Sequence record: NC_019517.1
Length of the DNA stretch: 64,000 bases
Direction: 5' to 3' (one strand)
Source: Escherichia phage FV3
The position numbers were made by a program, and so were the translations under genes. The notes under the pieces were generated by a model. That model saw only the letters and a list, made by a program, of their open reading frames with translations, ran no database searches and was not told the DNA's origin. Of the stretch, positions 26,550 to 40,308 are shown one piece after another. Numbering within the stretch: the stretch's first letter is position 1; each line of letters starts with the position of its first letter.

Positions 26550-28097
26550 TTAGATAAAACGCTTGAACATAGAAGGTGATGAGATTGATGGAATCACACA
26601 AGGAAGTGCTACCTCCTCTTTCTCCAGGAAATTAATCGCAGAAGCTACACAGTCGGCCCAATCGTCTTTTCTGTTAAATGTTGATCTTTCCCCGTTGAAT
26701 TTTTCAAGTTCAGTCAGAAATGCTTCCAGAGTATCAGGATGGAAACTGGATTTTACAATCCTCACCATTCCTTGTTGGGCAAGATTGGCAAAAGGTGAGA
26801 ACCTTGTCAGTTTAGATTTGTTGGAAGGCATTGGGTCTTCTTCAACCCTAAACCCTTCGGCAAGCAAGGATCTGGAGGAGGTTAAGAACTCACTCTTACC
26901 TGCCTGACCGGGGTCCACAGAGAATACGATTATACAATCATCACCATCAAACTGCGCCTGTTTCCTGATGATCACATCTCGTTCACCAGCCTTTTTACAG
27001 AACTTGCCTTCCAGACCTGTGGAATACCTCCCGTCATCCACGTTCTCAGGACAATAATCCCCGGACAGGTAATAAAAGCCGTCGCTATCTTTACTTACCT
27101 TAACACTGGCGGTAAAGTCAGGAAATTTATTACCGGAAGTTCTCTCGGTTCCTGCTTTATCCCATGCCCTGCAAGACACTGATCCAAGGGGCACTCTATC
27201 GGCATCACGAAGGAAAGATCTTTGAAAATAGTTTGCACCCTCAGGCTTTGCAAACCAGTTACCATGGAGAAGCTGAGCTTTTTCAAGCTCGGGCAGACCT
27301 TCAAGGAAAGCAAGGTATTCTGGGTTGTCTCTTAAGCAGACAGGATTATCGAAGATTGTTGCGCCTATAAACGAGAATGACAACGGTCTCGGCTTGATCT
27401 CTACACCCAGTCCGTTAACCGTGGTGTATTTCTCTATCAACTCTTCTTTAGAGTCTCCCCAGATAAATTCACCGTCGCGTCGGATAAAATATCTTTTCTT
27501 ACCGCATTTCTCCGGATCTGGATACCCTTCATCGTCCAACCACCACCTAACCAGTTTGGCAAGCATGTGTTCTGAATCGGGGTTACAGCTGATAACCATT
27601 CTTGATGGATACTTTGACTGAGATCTCAGACGAGACATCAGATAGTCTATCTGCTCCCATTCGAACTGCGTGCCCTCATCGAAGCAAACCATGGTATACT
27701 CAAGCCCTTGATGGTTAAGCTTATCTTGTACATACTCCATGTGGCAGTATTTTACAACAGCTCCCTTTTTGCTTCTATCCCACTTGCCAGTGTTCGGATC
27801 AAACCGTGGAAAAATGAACTTATGATCCTTCTCTCTGAACTTTGGCTTAATGTTTTCAGGCAGATCACTATAAATAGCTACTGCTTTAGGCCATAGTCCA
27901 CCCTCACCTTCCAACTGTGGGGTTGTTCTTCGGAACATAACCACAGAGCTGTGGGGGTCATCAATAATTTTAAGTGGCATCAGCTGCAAGAGGAACGACT
28001 TGCCAGACCCTGCGGCACCGCCGATTACCAAAATATCTGCATCGTTTTCGAGGATCATCTTCTGCTTTTCAGAACACGGTCCGTAAATCTTAGACAT
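26550..28097 (-). CDS. Terminase large subunit
   Basis: 515-aa ORF with N-terminal Walker A (ILVIGGAAGSGKSF) and acidic Walker B-like motifs; C-terminal half has nuclease-like acidic residues; precedes the portal-like gene. Confidence 0.8.
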   Translation of the reverse strand: MSKIYGPCSEKQKMILENDADILVIGGAAGSGKSFLLQLMPLKIIDDPHSSVVMFRRTTPQLEGEGGLWPKAVAIYSDLPENIKPKFREKDHKFIFPRFDPNTGKWDRSKKGAVVKYCHMEYVQDKLNHQGLEYTMVCFDEGTQFEWEQIDYLMSRLRSQSKYPSRMVISCNPDSEHMLAKLVRWWLDDEGYPDPEKCGKKRYFIRRDGEFIWGDSKEELIEKYTTVNGLGVEIKPRPLSFSFIGATIFDNPVCLRDNPEYLAFLEGLPELEKAQLLHGNWFAKPEGANYFQRSFLRDADRVPLGSVSCRAWDKAGTERTSGNKFPDFTASVKVSKDSDGFYYLSGDYCPENVDDGRYSTGLEGKFCKKAGERDVIIRKQAQFDGDDCIIVFSVDPGQAGKSEFLTSSRSLLAEGFRVEEDPMPSNKSKLTRFSPFANLAQQGMVRIVKSSFHPDTLEAFLTELEKFNGERSTFNRKDDWADCVASAINFLEKEEVALPCVIPSISSPSMFKRFI

Positions 28098-28384
28098 TAA
28101 CCTCTCTCCTTTGGAAACAGTGTTCTAATATAGTCTTGCAAAATGATCAATTTAGCTCTATCATTGCTACAAGACAGATTATTATCCCTCATAATGCCAG
28201 AATTCACTGCATCTGGCGCACCTTTCTTCAAAGGCATAGCTTTAGCAGGTGGTTTCATGGCACCTTCTGGGGGTTTAACAATCAACCTTCCTACATCAGG
28301 AGGGTCAATCTTGTATTCTCTCTCAACGCTGGTTGCACACCCACATAATAACAAGCACACAATAAACAGTGTAGCAACTCTCAT
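28097..28384 (-). CDS. Outer-membrane spanin (Rz1-like lipoprotein)
   Basis: 95-aa ORF with lipoprotein signal and lipobox (LLLCGC), Pro-rich mature region; 4-nt overlap with the i-spanin-like gene. Confidence 0.55.
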   Translation of the reverse strand: MRVATLFIVCLLLCGCATSVEREYKIDPPDVGRLIVKPPEGAMKPPAKAMPLKKGAPDAVNSGIMRDNNLSCSNDRAKLIILQDYIRTLFPKERG

Positions 28385-28779
28385 TGATCCTCCTGATTGA
28401 TACTCTCATTATAAATATCTATAAGCTGATCAGGAAGTGTTGACTTCTTGCCTTCAGGTGACTGGAGGTAGATAATCTGCTTTTCTTTACCTGCCTTCTC
28501 AGCCATATTTAATTTATCCTGCAGATCAGAAAGGGATTTTTCAAGGTTTTTAACCTCCTCTGCGTGGCCCATTTTAATTTTGTCGGCCTGCTTTTGTTGC
28601 TGATCAAGGATCCGTTCCCACTTTAACTCTGTTGCTGACACACCTTCTTGGTAGGCATCATTAAGCTTAGAGTTAAACCAATACACGGCCCCAAGATAAG
28701 CTGTACCTAGCGCAGCTGCAAAAACTAAACCTTTTATGATCCCTCTATACCTGCTCAGCCATGTTAAAACTGAAATCAT
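28381..28779 (-). CDS. Inner-membrane spanin (Rz-like)
   Basis: 132-aa ORF with N-terminal transmembrane helix followed by coiled-coil periplasmic domain; immediately followed by a lipoprotein gene. Confidence 0.55.
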   Translation of the reverse strand: MISVLTWLSRYRGIIKGLVFAAALGTAYLGAVYWFNSKLNDAYQEGVSATELKWERILDQQQKQADKIKMGHAEEVKNLEKSLSDLQDKLNMAEKAGKEKQIIYLQSPEGKKSTLPDQLIDIYNESINQEDQ

Positions 28780-28794
28780 TTTAAGGCTCCAGAA

Positions 28795-28830
28795 ACGAAA
28801 AAACCCCGCAGCTATACAGCTAACGGGGCG
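28795..28830 (-). terminator. Intrinsic terminator between early/tRNA region and lysis-structural block
   Basis: Minus-strand GC hairpin (plus 28804-28828) followed by U6 (plus A-run 28798-28803). Confidence 0.55.
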
Positions 28831-28884
28831 GGTTAAAATTGAGTAACCTAAATAGATCGAAACTAACTAAAAGGAGACTAATAC

Positions 28885-38747: not shown

Positions 38748-38835
38748 AATTGAATGAGTGTTTTCAATTGGCACCTGCATATGCCCTGATGTATGCACTG
38801 TGCAACATAGCCACACTATGTAGTGGTGCTGATCG
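38748..38835 (+). promoter_or_regulatory. Regulatory region upstream of endolysin: 9-bp inverted repeat plus TGTGCAACA-palindrome promoter-like element
   Basis: GCCAATTGA-N10-TCAATTGGC (38748-38775), then TGTGCAACA-TA-GCCACACTATGTAGTGGTGC (38798-38828), related to elements at 56558 and 63517. Confidence 0.35.
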
Positions 38836-38868
38836 GGCTCGTTATGAGTGAACTGGAGAGTATGAAAA

Positions 38869-39357
38869 ATGAAACTTGATAAAAATGTTCAACGAAAAGC
38901 TTTCTTGGATATGATCGCATATTCAGAAGGCACAGATAATGGTAGACAACCTACCAATGATCGGGGATACGATGTTATAGTCGGTGGCAAGCTGTTCAGC
39001 GATTACAGCAAGCATCCGGGTGTTTACGTTAAGCTAAATGCTAAACTTACCTCTTCTGCTGCTGGGCGTTACCAGATTTTGGAGAAGTTTGCTAAACACT
39101 ACATGAAACAGTTAGGATTACCAGATTTTGGCCCTGCCAGTCAGGACAAGATTGCGTTGCAACTGATCCGTGAGTGTAAGGCGCTCGATGATATTGATGA
39201 AGGTCGTATTCACCAAGCTATTTATAAATGCCGCAGCCGCTGGGCAAGCTTCCCACCACCGCCAGGGGCTGGAAAGCTGTACAATCAGCGAGCAGAAAGT
39301 ATAGACAAGATGCTGGATATCTTTAAGAAGTCAGGTGGAGTTGTTACGGATGAGTAA
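38869..39357 (+). CDS. Endolysin, lambda R-like lytic transglycosylase
   Basis: 162-aa ORF closely resembling phage lambda R from recall (QRKAFLDM.A.SEGTDNGRQ.T...GYDVIVGG.LF.DYS.HP, GRYQ.L, catalytic Glu in SEGT). Confidence 0.8.
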   Translation: MKLDKNVQRKAFLDMIAYSEGTDNGRQPTNDRGYDVIVGGKLFSDYSKHPGVYVKLNAKLTSSAAGRYQILEKFAKHYMKQLGLPDFGPASQDKIALQLIRECKALDDIDEGRIHQAIYKCRSRWASFPPPPGAGKLYNQRAESIDKMLDIFKKSGGVVTDE

Positions 39358-40033
39358 CGTGATTGACTGGTGGAGTGTCTTTAGATACGACACAGGCACT
39401 GGAAGGTTGTTTTGGAAGGACCCGCCAAAAAACAAACCTCAACTAGTGGGAAAGGAGGCTGGATGTACTAACATGGACGGGTACAGGGATATAGTCTATC
39501 GTGGCGTGCATTACTACAGGCATAGATTGGTGTGGGAGATGCATTATGGACCAATCCCAGAAGGGTATGAAGTTGATCACATAAAGCCACTTTTCTATTC
39601 CGATGGTGTTGCTGATGATAGGGTAGAAAACCTACAACTGTTAACACCAGAAGAAAACGCAAAAAAGGCGGCAGATGACGGATGCCTGGCACGTAAGATA
39701 CCTAAATCCAATACTGGACACTTGGGTGTATATTTTCATGCTAGGACTGGAAGGTATGCTGCTTTTGGTAAGGTAGGTCATTACTATAAGAAAGACCTAG
39801 GGGAGTACGATACCTTAGAAGAGGCCATTGCTGCTCAAAAGTCTTTTGAAAGTGGCACGTTTGTCAGGGAATATCGTGGACATCCTTTAGGGAGGGATAA
39901 ATCTAGAGGTGTCAGATTTGAAGCAGATAGAGGCAAATGGAAAGTAACTTTCAGAGGAAAAACGTTAGGTAGGTTTGACACCAAAGAGTCTGCTGAAGCG
40001 TGTTACGCAAAGGCTCTTGCTGAAAGATTGTAA
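39350..40033 (+). CDS. HNH endonuclease with AP2-like DNA-binding domains
   Basis: HNH motif (YEVDHIKP...DDRVENLQLLTPEENAKKA) followed by two AP2-type repeats (GVYFHARTGRYAAFGK..., RGVRFEADRGKWKVTFRGKTLGRFDTKESAEACY). Likely start ATG 39350, overlapping the endolysin stop (ATGAGTAA). Confidence 0.7.
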   Translation: MSNVIDWWSVFRYDTGTGRLFWKDPPKNKPQLVGKEAGCTNMDGYRDIVYRGVHYYRHRLVWEMHYGPIPEGYEVDHIKPLFYSDGVADDRVENLQLLTPEENAKKAADDGCLARKIPKSNTGHLGVYFHARTGRYAAFGKVGHYYKKDLGEYDTLEEAIAAQKSFESGTFVREYRGHPLGRDKSRGVRFEADRGKWKVTFRGKTLGRFDTKESAEACYAKALAERL

Positions 40034-40101
40034 CAGTATCATTGACATAACCACACGGACGTGGTATTGTTACCTCATAGAATGTTCAGGAGGATTTAAC
40101 T

Positions 40102-40308
40102 ATGAAAGATTTTCTGTTGGCAATTTTGTTCATGGCTGCATGCCTTGCCTGTGGTGTCGTGTTTGCAGGTGAGACAGCGTACCTTGTAGATGTATATCGG
40201 GACAATGGTAAACGTATTTGCATTTATGAGACAAGCCAAGGTGAGCTATATGAGCTTGTGAAGCAAGGTGAGGCAGGTTCATGCCCTCGCACCCATTTCT
40301 TTGAATGA
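40102..40308 (+). CDS. Small putative lipoprotein (68 aa)
   Basis: N-terminal signal with lipobox-like LACG; short mature domain with two further Cys. Confidence 0.4.
   Translation: MKDFLLAILFMAACLACGVVFAGETAYLVDVYRDNGKRICIYETSQGELYELVKQGEAGSCPRTHFFE

What the first reader, a model, noticed from the sequence alone, without database searches (positions are those of the whole stretch)
28097..40308. Dispersed lysis genes: spanins beside terminase, endolysin about 10 kb away among replication genes, no obvious adjacent holin
The Rz/Rz1-like spanin pair sits at the head of the minus-strand late block next to the terminase gene, while the lambda-R-like endolysin is on the plus strand at 38869 and is immediately followed by an HNH endonuclease whose start overlaps its stop. 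No classical holin lies beside either. Candidate small membrane proteins are scattered (40102..40308 lipoprotein-like, 62416..62652 with two helices, 63577..63924). The small lipoprotein near the endolysin could alternatively be a superinfection-exclusion or receptor-blocking factor.
Basis: partly seen in the sequence, partly recalled or inferred. Interest (0 to 1): 0.4.

Follow-up and report, generated by a model that had tools for sequence, protein, structure and literature searches.

The report
Scattered lysis genes of an rV5-like phage
This piece of an rV5-like E. coli phage keeps its cell-bursting genes in separate places with no recognisable holin next to them, which is real but is the ordinary, already published layout of this phage group.

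Summary
The window is a Vequintavirus (rV5-like coliphage, 95-97% nucleotide identity to many isolates). An i-spanin/o-spanin pair (28381-28779, 28097-28384, minus strand) is translationally coupled to the large terminase gene. A soluble lambda-R-type endolysin (38869-39357, plus strand) sits about 10 kb away among ligase, Sir2 and nuclease genes. An HNH gene overlaps its stop codon. No holin lies beside either locus, even with an ORF cutoff of 18 aa.

All of this is already published for the genus:
- rV5 paper, 2013: lysin gp89; the 78-aa two-TMD "gp129" proposed as a holin, separated "as in T4".
- CB7 paper, 2020: the spanins lie next to the terminase gene.

New details:
- The 68-aa ORF after the endolysin is more likely a Sec-secreted periplasmic protein than a lipoprotein.
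- The HNH gene is a sporadic homing endonuclease (9 phage records) and the last ~145 nt of the endolysin gene were replaced with it.
- A second, signal-peptide SleB-like hydrolase lies outside the window.

Interest is low.

The parts
26550..28097 (-). Large terminase subunit, uninterrupted (515 aa). Its start overlaps the o-spanin stop (TAATG).
   Evidence: ORF list. Annotated 'terminase large subunit' in B9-1 and NHEP1. Sequence.
28097..28384 (-). o-spanin (Rz1 equivalent), 95 aa. Signal peptide with lipobox L-L-C-G-C16; Pro-rich mature part.
   Evidence: PHROG 1267 'Rz-like spanin', E 1.3e-22. Annotated O-spanin in B9-1. Sequence read directly.
28381..28779 (-). i-spanin (Rz equivalent), 132 aa. 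N-terminal TMD (about residues 14-36), then a charged helical periplasmic part. 4-nt overlap with the o-spanin gene.
   Evidence: PHROG 4297, E 8.2e-50. Hydropathy. Annotated I-spanin in B9-1.
28797..28829 (-). Terminator-like hairpin plus U6. It ends 18 nt upstream of the i-spanin ATG and separates the tRNA/small-gene unit from the spanin-terminase-structural unit.
   Evidence: RNA fold of 28790-28850(-) (hairpin, flanks and a second small stem) -20.3 kcal/mol, z -3.74, 0 of 200 shuffles as stable. Sequence.
38869..39357 (+). Endolysin, 162 aa. Lambda-R-type lytic transglycosylase, soluble (no signal or SAR segment).
   Evidence: PDB 1AM7/3D3D, E 1.5e-48, SEGT motif aligned. PHROG 90 endolysin, 6.9e-52.
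39213..39349 (+). Divergent 3' end of the endolysin gene, interpreted as a co-conversion tract that arrived with the HNH gene.
   Evidence: blastn against HNH-less B9-1 stops at 39212 and resumes at 40038. This tract is 84% identical to the endolysin allele of V18/JEP1-type phages.
39350..40033 (+). Free-standing HNH homing endonuclease gene (HNH_3 plus an AP2-like DNA-binding region). It is inserted at the endolysin stop codon.
   Evidence: PF13392 2e-13, PHROG 99 3.4e-50. Present in only 9 phage records and absent from B9-1, NHEP1 and rV5.
40042..40070 (+). Sigma-70-type promoter (TTGACA-17-TATTGT with TG) for the 68-aa gene. It equals rV5 promoter P090.
   Evidence: Scan. rV5 Table S4 lists P090 with the same sequence.
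40102..40308 (+). 68-aa protein (rV5 gene 90). Cleavable signal peptide plus a ~45-aa beta-sheet periplasmic domain with two conserved Cys. Function unknown.
   Evidence: Alignment A2. AF2 model pLDDT 82. No fold or family match. PHROG 4641, unknown function.
40318..40782 (+). Second HNH endonuclease gene, conserved in the genus (rV5 gene 91).
   Evidence: PHROG 5200, 2.1e-72. rV5 Table S3. NHEP1 annotation.
62416..62652 (+). Best holin candidate: 78 aa, two TMDs, basic/charged C-terminal tail. Homolog of rV5 ORF129 ('gp129' of the 2013 paper).
   Evidence: 53% identity to rV5 ORF129. Alignment A1. Hydropathy. Proposal in PMC3606486.
62767..62886 (+). 39-aa single-TMD protein with a charged tail (rV5 ORF131).
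   Evidence: PHROG 15251 matches residues 19-57 of the longer ORF. Hydropathy.
63061..63516 (+). 151-aa protein with a C-terminal TMD (rV5 ORF133, reported as a virion structural protein).
   Evidence: PHROG 7821. rV5 annotation. Hydropathy.
63577..63924 (+). 115-aa protein with an N-terminal TMD or signal anchor and a ~90-aa predicted periplasmic alpha/beta domain (rV5 ORF134).
   Evidence: Hydropathy. Alignment A4. AF2 model pLDDT 69. No PDB fold match and none to T4 RI/T.

Best explanation
The window is part of a Vequintavirus (rV5-like myophage) genome. Its lysis genes are unlinked, as in T4, rather than grouped in a lambda-style cassette.

Shown:
1. A two-component spanin (i-spanin with an N-terminal TMD, o-spanin lipoprotein) is the first translated unit of the late minus-strand operon. 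It is translationally coupled to TerL and lies directly behind an intrinsic-terminator-like hairpin.
2. The endolysin is a soluble lambda-R-type lytic transglycosylase, encoded on the opposite strand among ligase, Sir2, pyrophosphohydrolase and nuclease genes.
3. In this isolate a free-standing HNH homing endonuclease gene sits on the endolysin stop codon, and the last ~145 nt of the endolysin gene are a foreign allele.
4. No holin-like ORF adjoins either locus.

Inferred:
- The endolysin has no export signal, so it needs a hole-forming holin.
- The most likely holin (about 40%) is the 78-aa, two-TMD, charged-tail protein at 62416-62652 (rV5 ORF129 homolog), 23 kb downstream of the endolysin.
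- That protein would accumulate in the inner membrane, trigger and release the endolysin. The spanin complex would then fuse the inner and outer membranes.
- The 68-aa gene after the endolysin encodes a small Sec-secreted periplasmic protein with its own sigma-70 promoter. It is probably not a holin.
For: Identity of the phage:
- 95-97% nucleotide identity over 12.4 kb to rV5_ev147, nom, B9-1 and NHEP1; 110 records cover at least 80% of the query.

Spanins:
- PHROG hits, relatives' annotations, and the gene overlaps read directly.
- Terminator-like hairpin: fold of the 61-nt stretch -20.3 kcal/mol, z -3.7.

Endolysin:
- PDB 1AM7, E 1.5e-48, with the SEGT motif aligned.
- No hydrophobic segment.

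HNH gene:
- Pfam and PHROG hits.
- Present in 9 records only.
- Homology to the HNH-less B9-1 breaks at 39212 and resumes at 40038.

No adjacent holin:
- ORF scan down to 18 aa.
- No 'holin' in the viewed parts of the Pharokka-annotated NHEP1 genome.

Holin candidate:
- Two TMDs and a charged tail.
- Its region matches 116 phage records, 112 of them over at least 80% of the query.
- A 70-aa two-TMD protein with an RRR tail occupies the same slot, just upstream of the ORF132 homolog and two genes before the ORF133 homolog, in Mydovirus BIS47 and Seunavirus SPLA5a.
- Proposed as the holin in PMC3606486.

Published statements of the same layout:
- PMC6658697 and PMC7344957.
Against: - No candidate matches any Pfam, NCBIfam or PHROG holin family.
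- The ORF129 homolog sits in a tightly packed run of plus-strand genes. The only nearby promoter-like site is sigma-70 type (60928-60956), and no late-type motif was found, so late expression is not shown.
- The Mydovirus/Seunavirus positional analogue shows no significant sequence relationship (hhalign E 0.39).
- Other membrane proteins exist: ORF131, ORF133 and ORF134 beside the candidate, ORF29 and ORF31 in the tail-fibre cluster, and several in the early regions.
- A second, Sec-exported SleB-like hydrolase could make the R-type enzyme non-essential.
- TMD calls rest on Kyte-Doolittle hydropathy, not on a trained topology predictor.
Confidence: 0.85

Rival explanations
1. The holin is a different membrane protein, not the ORF129 homolog. 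Candidates inside the window are the 39-aa single-TMD protein (62767-62886) and the 115-aa N-terminal-TMD protein (63577-63924, T4 T/RI-like topology). Candidates outside the window are ORF29 (88 aa) and ORF31 (104 aa, TMD plus coiled coil) in the late tail-fibre cluster, a position like that of T4 gene t behind gene 38.
For: - Several small membrane proteins exist.
- ORF29 and ORF31 lie in a late structural operon, the expected timing for a holin.
- LL12 annotators could not pick one.
- ORF134 is highly conserved in the genus, 81-97% identity.
Against: - None hits a holin family.
- The ORF134 model shows no similarity to T4 T or RI structures.
- According to the rV5 paper, only ORF129 has two TMDs by two predictors, plus a charged tail.
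- ORF133 is reported as a virion protein.
Confidence: 0.35
2. Lysis is driven mainly by the Sec-exported SleB-like cell-wall hydrolase encoded next to rIIA/rIIB (outside the window). It would be activated when a small pinholin-type protein depolarises the membrane. The lambda-R-type enzyme in the finding would be accessory or redundant, so no large-hole holin is needed.
For: - A 166-aa Hydrolase_2 (PF07486, 2.1e-19) with an N-terminal signal peptide is present in the relative NHEP1.
- The CB7 paper reports homologs in all Vequintavirinae genera, a CR3 homolog implicated in lysis, and a two-TMD class II holin candidate overlapping it in Certrevirus.
- Two-TMD class II proteins such as S21 are pinholins (established knowledge).
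Against: - The R-type endolysin is annotated at this position in every Vequintavirus relative examined and has no export signal, which implies selection for a holin-dependent route.
- In Vequintavirus no TMD protein adjoins the SleB-like gene.
- No experiment on either enzyme exists for this genus in the searched literature.
Confidence: 0.15
3. The 68-aa protein downstream of the endolysin takes part in lysis control or exclusion. Three variants: an outer-membrane lipoprotein that blocks a receptor, a periplasmic inhibitor of the transglycosylase (Spackle- or Ivy-like), or an antiholin-like periplasmic sensor.
For: - The gene lies directly downstream of the endolysin gene in rV5, B9-1 and NHEP1 (63-nt gap) and stays there, past the HNH insertion, in this window.
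- It has its own sigma-70 promoter, so possibly early expression.
- Its homologs come from rV5-size genomes, 11 clusters, several on ~135-kb contigs.
- It has an export signal and a conserved Cys pair.
- In this allele Cys14 formally fits the PROSITE lipobox (read from the sequence).
- In rV5 Table S3 the protein is acidic (pI 4.8) and the lysin basic (pI 9.3).
Against: - The signal-region Cys is absent in five of eight aligned homolog clusters, so lipidation is not a conserved feature.
- There is no family or fold match to any known inhibitor, antiholin or exclusion protein.
- Adjacency alone is weak evidence in a genome of tightly packed small genes.
Confidence: 0.1
4. A canonical holin is adjacent to the endolysin or the spanins but was missed because of an ORF size cutoff or mis-annotation.
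For: Holins can be very small and are often missed by gene callers (general knowledge).
Against: - A scan of both strands down to 18 aa at 27900-29300 and 38500-40450 found no hydrophobic ORF outside known genes.
- The intergenic gaps (105 nt before the i-spanin, 151 nt before the endolysin, 68 nt before the 68-aa gene) hold hairpins or a promoter, not ORFs.
- Careful annotations of relatives agree.
Confidence: 0.02

Closest known systems
Escherichia phage rV5 / LL12 and other Vequintavirus genomes (Kropinski et al. 2013, PMC3606486; Piya et al. 2019, PMC6658697)
   Same: - Same genes in the same order: spanins (rV5 genes 66/67, LL12 gp65/66) next to TerL.
- Lysin gp89 after the DNA ligase gene.
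- The 68-aa gene 90 with promoter P090, then HNH gene 91.
- The 78-aa ORF129 proposed as a holin 'separated from the lysin gene as in T4'.
[quoted passage not shown]
   Different: - This isolate carries an extra HNH homing endonuclease gene on the endolysin stop codon, with a replaced endolysin 3' end. The endolysin is 162 aa here against 156 aa.
- TerL is uninterrupted here; it is intron-split in rV5 and LL12.
- The ORF129 homolog is only 53% identical to that of rV5, mostly because TMD1 differs.
Phage T4 lysis genes (e, t, rI, rIII, pseT.3/pseT.2), which are unlinked (established knowledge; Cahill & Young 2019)
   Same: - A large virulent myophage with endolysin, holin and spanin genes at separate loci.
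- Separate, abutting i- and o-spanin genes.
- rIIA/rIIB homologs are present in the genome.
   Different: - The endolysin is a lambda-R-type transglycosylase, not a T4 E-type muramidase.
- No homolog of holin T or antiholin RI was found by family search or by fold search.
- rV5 lacks homologs of the T4 late-transcription proteins gp33, gp45 and gp55 (PMC3606486).
Lambda SRRzRz1 lysis cassette
   Same: The endolysin is a close structural-family relative of lambda R (E 1.5e-48, catalytic Glu motif). The functional logic is the same: holin, then endolysin, then a two-component spanin.
   Different: The genes are not clustered. There is no S-like three-TMD holin. The o-spanin gene is not embedded in the i-spanin gene.
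Spanins adjacent to the terminase gene in CB7, PVP-SE1, SP6 and VP4 (Buttimer et al. 2020, PMC7344957; Summer et al. 2007)
   Same: An Rz/Rz1 pair lies outside any lysis cassette, directly beside the large terminase gene, with the stop of Rz overlapping the start of Rz1.
   Different: In Certrevirus a two-TMD holin candidate overlaps the SleB-like hydrolase gene. In Vequintavirus no membrane protein adjoins any of the three lysis loci.
Free-standing homing endonucleases of T-even phages (seg and mob genes) with co-conversion of flanking markers
   Same: An HNH ORF lies between conserved genes, is distributed sporadically among near-identical genomes, and is flanked by a tract of foreign sequence in the neighbouring gene.
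   Different: Activity and cleavage site are untested. The endonuclease start overlaps the endolysin stop, so the two may be translationally coupled.

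Membership tests
Two-component spanin (Rz/Rz1 equivalents) | i-spanin: type II inner-membrane protein with a single N-terminal TMD and a helical periplasmic domain | tested here: met
   Hydrophobic segment at about residues 14-36, followed by a charged helical sequence. PHROG 4297 'Rz-like spanin', 8.2e-50.
Two-component spanin (Rz/Rz1 equivalents) | o-spanin: small outer-membrane lipoprotein with a lipobox Cys, no Asp at +2 and a Pro-rich mature part | tested here: met
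   MRVATLFIVCLLLCG|C16-A; fits PROSITE PS51257 at Cys16. The mature part contains PP, KPP and KPP motifs. PHROG 1267, 1.3e-22.
Two-component spanin (Rz/Rz1 equivalents) | The two genes are adjacent, overlapped or embedded | tested here: met
   4-nt ATGA overlap at 28381-28384.
Two-component spanin (Rz/Rz1 equivalents) | Required for outer-membrane disruption at lysis | not testable with these tools
   Needs genetics: spherical-cell phenotype of spanin nulls in the presence of Mg2+.
Lambda R-type lytic transglycosylase endolysin (GH104) | Full-length sequence similarity to lambda R with the catalytic Glu in the SEGT motif | tested here: met
   phmmer against PDB 1AM7/3D3D, E 1.5e-48, residues 4-160. 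'AYSEGTDNG' aligns with 'AWSEGTDNG'.
Lambda R-type lytic transglycosylase endolysin (GH104) | Cytoplasmic, holin-dependent: no signal peptide or SAR domain | tested here: met
   No hydrophobic window at or above the threshold anywhere in the protein. The N-terminus is MKLDKNVQRKAF.
Holin (class II type), for 62416-62652 | Small protein (65-95 aa) with two TMDs and a charged, basic C-terminal tail | tested here: met
   78 aa. TMDs at about residues 8-29 and 38-60 (KD 2.39 and 2.33). Tail KTVRKMKEADKNGNSD.
Holin (class II type), for 62416-62652 | Membership of a described holin family | tested here: not met
   No hit in Pfam (E up to 10) or NCBIfam (E up to 1). PHROG 10061 is 'unknown function'.
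Holin (class II type), for 62416-62652 | Genetic linkage to endolysin or spanin genes | tested here: not met
   23 kb from the endolysin and 34 kb from the spanins (coordinates).
Holin (class II type), for 62416-62652 | Late expression | tested here: inconclusive
   No rV5-type late motif upstream. The nearest promoter-like site is sigma-70 type at 60928-60956. No transcript data found.
Holin (class II type), for 62416-62652 | Lethal, triggerable membrane hole that releases or activates the endolysin | not testable with these tools
   Requires an expression or complementation assay.
Bacterial lipoprotein, for 40102-40308 | Lipobox with an invariant Cys at the cleavage site, conserved among homologs | tested here: not met
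   This allele formally fits a lipobox at Cys14. Five of eight aligned homolog clusters (P0031-P0035) have no Cys before residue 40. All keep an A/S-x-A/S|G site.
HNH homing endonuclease (free-standing), for 39350-40033 | HNH nuclease domain | tested here: met
   PF13392 HNH_3, 2e-13 (above the cutoff). PHROG 99, 3.4e-50.
HNH homing endonuclease (free-standing), for 39350-40033 | Sporadic presence or absence at a fixed site among close relatives, with altered flanking sequence | tested here: met
   Full-length match in 9 records only. Absent from B9-1, NHEP1 and rV5. Flanking 137-145 nt diverge.
HNH homing endonuclease (free-standing), for 39350-40033 | Site-specific cleavage of the HNH-less allele and super-Mendelian inheritance | not testable with these tools
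   Needs co-infection crosses or in vitro cleavage.
T4 holin T / antiholin RI type, for 63577-63924 | N-terminal TMD or SAR plus a periplasmic domain with the T or RI fold | tested here: not met
   The topology is similar, but the AF2 model (pLDDT 69) has no PDB match with E at or below 0.001 and none to T or RI. No Pfam hit.

The most novel reading that the evidence does not exclude
The small Sec-secreted, disulfide-containing protein encoded directly downstream of the endolysin gene in every relative examined, from its own sigma-70 promoter (40102-40308), could be a periplasmic partner of the lambda-R-type transglycosylase. It might be an inhibitor that protects the infected cell from premature or external murein attack (functionally like T4 Spackle or bacterial Ivy/PliC). 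It might instead be a lysis-timing sensor. A related, less novel reading: the two-TMD proteins in the ORF129 slot of Vequintavirus, Mydovirus and Seunavirus form an unrecognised holin family for the whole subfamily.
Probability: 0.1. Interest if true: 0.45.

Novelty: already known. Interest (0 to 1): 0.15.

Why it matters
rV5-like phages are widely isolated and are used in biocontrol and commercial preparations (LL12 is a component of PreforPro). Their holin has nevertheless never been identified experimentally. Knowing it would allow lysis timing to be engineered and would complete the lysis pathway of a whole subfamily.

The finding itself adds nothing to what the rV5, LL12 and CB7 papers already state. 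It only re-derives the open question. The useful residue of this work is:
- a short, ranked list of candidates;
- the correction that gene 90 is a secreted rather than a lipidated protein;
- a clear example of a homing endonuclease remodelling the 3' end of an endolysin gene.

Tried and rejected
1. Hidden small holin next to the endolysin or spanins. ORF scan down to 18 aa found none.
2. Holin family membership of five membrane or secreted candidates in Pfam (E up to 10), NCBIfam and PHROGs. No holin hit. The same holds for rV5 ORF29 and ORF31.
3. Structure of the 68-aa protein (pLDDT 82) followed by a PDB fold search. Only generic small beta-barrel hits, best E 0.04.
4. Structure of the 115-aa protein (pLDDT 69) followed by a PDB fold search. 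No significant hit and no similarity to T4 T or RI; best hit DcrB, E 0.05.
5. T4-e-style translational control by a hairpin that occludes the endolysin Shine-Dalgarno. The fold of 38718-38890 shows two upstream hairpins, z only -2.1, and the Shine-Dalgarno is not sequestered.
6. The rV5 'late promoter' motif (TGGTAAAATA-like). It was found upstream of structural genes only (positions 20354, 16833 and 2693 on the minus strand), not upstream of the endolysin, spanins or ORF129.
7. Profile-profile comparison of the ORF129 family with the Mydovirus/Seunavirus positional analogue. Not significant, E 0.39.
8. Homolog searches for the 78-, 68- and 115-aa proteins. All hits are confined to rV5-size genomes, so no informative distant gene context was obtained.
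9. Papers on the ASEC2201 and UE-M6 holins concern other phage groups and are irrelevant.

Full report
**What the window is.** A megablast of 28000-40400 finds 744 phage records. Of these, 110 cover at least 80% of the query, and the best are 95-97% identical (rV5_ev147, nom, B9-1, NHEP1; all Vequintavirus, subfamily Vequintavirinae). GC skew and the ORF layout show a minus-strand block up to about 34 kb: structural genes, TerL, spanins, seven tRNA genes and small genes. A plus-strand block runs from 34 to 64 kb and holds RNA ligase, Sir2, pyrophosphohydrolase, DNA ligase, nucleases and other genes.

**Check of the observation.**
- The i-spanin (28381-28779, minus strand; 132 aa) has one N-terminal TMD and a charged helical remainder. 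It hits PHROG 4297 'Rz-like spanin' at 8e-50.
- The o-spanin (28097-28384; 95 aa) has the signal/lipobox MRVATLFIVCLLLCG|C and a Pro-rich mature part. It hits PHROG 1267 at 1e-22.
- The two genes overlap by ATGA, and the o-spanin stop overlaps the TerL start (TAATG), so spanins and terminase form one translationally coupled unit.
- The endolysin (38869-39357, plus strand; 162 aa) aligns over its full length with lambda lysozyme R (PDB 1AM7/3D3D, E 1.5e-48). The catalytic SEGT motif is conserved and there is no hydrophobic N-terminus, so it is a soluble, holin-dependent type.
- The next ORF is an HNH endonuclease (PF13392 2e-13, PHROG 99 3e-50). Its probable ATG at 39350 follows an AGGTGGAG Shine-Dalgarno and overlaps the last 8 nt of the endolysin gene.
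A scan of both strands down to 18 aa around both loci found no additional hydrophobic ORF, apart from out-of-frame or antisense ORFs inside known genes.

**It is already known.**
- The rV5 genome paper states that gp89 is the lysin and that no holin homolog was found. [quoted passage not shown]
- ORF129 of the rV5 record is 53% identical to the window's 62416-62652.
[quoted passage not shown] - The rV5 spanins are catalogued in the spanin survey (PMC6139136).
- rV5 Table S4 lists promoter P090, which is the sigma-70-type promoter I find at 40042-40070 in front of the 68-aa gene.

**The 68-aa ORF (40102-40308).**
- In an alignment of eight homolog clusters (64-88% identity), five have no Cys in the signal region and a sixth keeps a Cys that lacks a lipobox. 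All eight keep a small-x-small|G cleavage site and two invariant Cys (C40, C61) in the mature part.
- The parsimonious reading is a Sec-secreted periplasmic protein of about 45 aa, probably disulfide-bonded.
- An AlphaFold model (pLDDT 82) shows a signal helix plus a four-stranded sheet. It has no significant PDB neighbour and no Pfam or NCBIfam hit.
- Its homologs come from rV5-size genomes, several on ~135-kb contigs. In rV5, B9-1 and NHEP1 the gene lies 63 nt downstream of the endolysin gene.
- Its function remains unknown. A role as a periplasmic partner or inhibitor of the transglycosylase, or as an exclusion factor, is possible but unsupported.

**The HNH gene.**
- B9-1, NHEP1 and rV5 lack it. 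In them the endolysin gene is 471 nt (156 aa) and is followed 63 nt later by the 68-aa gene.
- Only nine phage records carry the 841-nt segment 39205-40045.
- Against B9-1, nucleotide homology stops at 39212 and resumes at 40038, the position of the B9-1 endolysin stop codon.
- The last ~145 nt of the endolysin gene are therefore a different allele. It is 84% identical to that of V18/JEP1-type relatives and changes the C-terminus (…SFPPPPGAGKLYNQRAESIDKMLDIF… against …SLPGAGYGQHEQKIEKLIEVF…).
- This is the signature of a free-standing homing endonuclease with a co-conversion tract. It is not a component of the lysis system.

**Where is the holin?**
- The endolysin has no export signal, so a hole-forming holin is expected (established lysis biology).
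- Hydropathy scanning of the window finds a compact cluster of membrane proteins at 62.4-63.9 kb:
  - the 78-aa two-TMD ORF129 homolog;
  - a 39-aa single-TMD protein (ORF131);
  - a protein with a C-terminal TMD (ORF133, annotated as a virion structural protein);
  - a 115-aa protein with an N-terminal TMD (ORF134).
- In the ORF129 family, TMD2 and the loop are nearly invariant, while TMD1 and the tail vary. Identity is 49-97% inside a genus whose genomes are about 90% identical or more.
- Using ORF133 as a synteny anchor, I found a 70-aa protein with two TMDs and an RRR tail in the same slot in Mydovirus BIS47 and Seunavirus SPLA5a. The slot is just upstream of the ORF132 homolog and two genes before the ORF133 homolog. 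The SPLA5a ORF is unannotated. Profile comparison shows no significant sequence relationship (E 0.39).
- That positional conservation is modest support for a conserved membrane function.
- Against the candidate:
  - no match to any holin family;
  - no linkage to other lysis genes;
  - no evidence of late expression: the rV5-type late motif occurs only before structural genes, and the nearest promoter-like site is sigma-70 type.
- I put ORF129-as-holin at about 40%.

**Alternatives outside the window.**
- Relatives encode a second muralytic enzyme, a 166-aa Hydrolase_2 (SleB-like; PF07486, 2e-19) with a signal peptide. It lies immediately upstream of rIIA/rIIB and is absent from this window.
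- The CB7 paper reports that this enzyme is conserved across the subfamily and that its CR3 homolog is implicated in lysis.
- The rV5 tail-fibre cluster contains two further membrane proteins: ORF29 (88 aa) and ORF31 (104 aa, TMD plus coiled coil). Their late-operon position recalls T4 gene t. Neither hits a holin family.
- No gene is annotated as a holin in the viewed parts of the Pharokka-annotated NHEP1 genome.

**Regulatory details.**
- A strong hairpin followed by U6 (28829-28797, minus strand) ends 18 nt before the i-spanin ATG. The fold of the surrounding 61 nt gives -20.3 kcal/mol, z -3.7.
- This marks the boundary between the tRNA/small-gene unit and the spanin-TerL-structural unit. 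It implies read-through or an unrecognised promoter for late genes.
- The 151-nt gap before the endolysin holds two hairpins, but they do not occlude the Shine-Dalgarno. I found no sign of T4-e-like translational control.

**Verdict.** It describes the normal, published gene order of rV5-like phages. The open point, the identity of the holin, is real but minor. It has been stated in print since 2013 and cannot be settled computationally. Novelty: already known. Interest: 0.15.

Noticed in passing
window 39213-40037: An HNH homing endonuclease gene sits on the endolysin stop codon, and the last ~145 nt of the endolysin gene are replaced by a foreign allele (co-conversion-like). It is present in only 9 phage records. 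The endolysin is 162 aa here against 156 aa in relatives.
   Followed up: yes
window 28797-28829 (minus strand): A strong intrinsic-terminator-like hairpin plus U6 ends only 18 nt upstream of the i-spanin start codon. No recognisable promoter lies between it and the gene, so it is unclear how the spanin-terminase operon is transcribed.
   Followed up: partly
window 26550-28097: TerL is a single uninterrupted 515-aa ORF here. The rV5 and LL12 papers describe their TerL genes as split by introns or a homing endonuclease.
   Followed up: no
window 29446-29544 (minus strand): An odd 97-99-nt tRNA-like gene in the tRNA cluster. ARAGORN reports a 4-base anticodon (atcc). Rfam tRNA scores 35.5 bits, just above the gathering threshold. 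It may be a tRNA with an insert or a pseudo-tRNA. It is not annotated in NHEP1.
   Followed up: partly
window 62416-63924: Four membrane proteins lie within 1.5 kb: two-TMD 78 aa, one-TMD 39 aa, C-terminal-TMD 151 aa (reported as a virion protein in rV5), and N-terminal-TMD 115 aa. It is unexplained why a virion structural protein with a C-terminal TMD is encoded in the non-structural block.
   Followed up: partly
window 62300-62512: The 5' half of the ORF129 homolog (TMD1) and the end of the upstream gene are too divergent for blastn in most relatives (coverage starts at query position 189-213), although the flanks are 88-95% identical. This is a local hypervariable or mosaic spot.
   Followed up: partly
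L006 (Salmonella phage SPLA5a) 1748-1960; L005 (Klebsiella phage BIS47) 1832-2044: A 70-aa two-TMD protein with an RRR tail occupies the slot equivalent to rV5 ORF129 in Seunavirus and Mydovirus. It is not annotated in the SPLA5a record.
   Followed up: yes
L004 (NHEP1) 44720-45220, outside the window: A second muralytic enzyme (SleB-like Hydrolase_2 with a signal peptide) is encoded directly upstream of rIIA/rIIB in relatives. It forms a third separate lysis-related locus.
   Followed up: partly
window 38745-38772: A perfect 10-bp inverted repeat (GCCAATTGAA…TTCAATTGGC) without a T-run lies in the ligase-endolysin gap, followed by a second hairpin. About 24 nt (38782-38805) are extra relative to B9-1. 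Their role is unknown.
   Followed up: partly
search results: About 18 GenBank records named 'Campylobacter phage' (e.g. C15, C2, A141) are 88-91% identical to this E. coli Vequintavirus over the regions searched. This suggests mislabelled hosts or contaminating coliphages in that data set.
   Followed up: no
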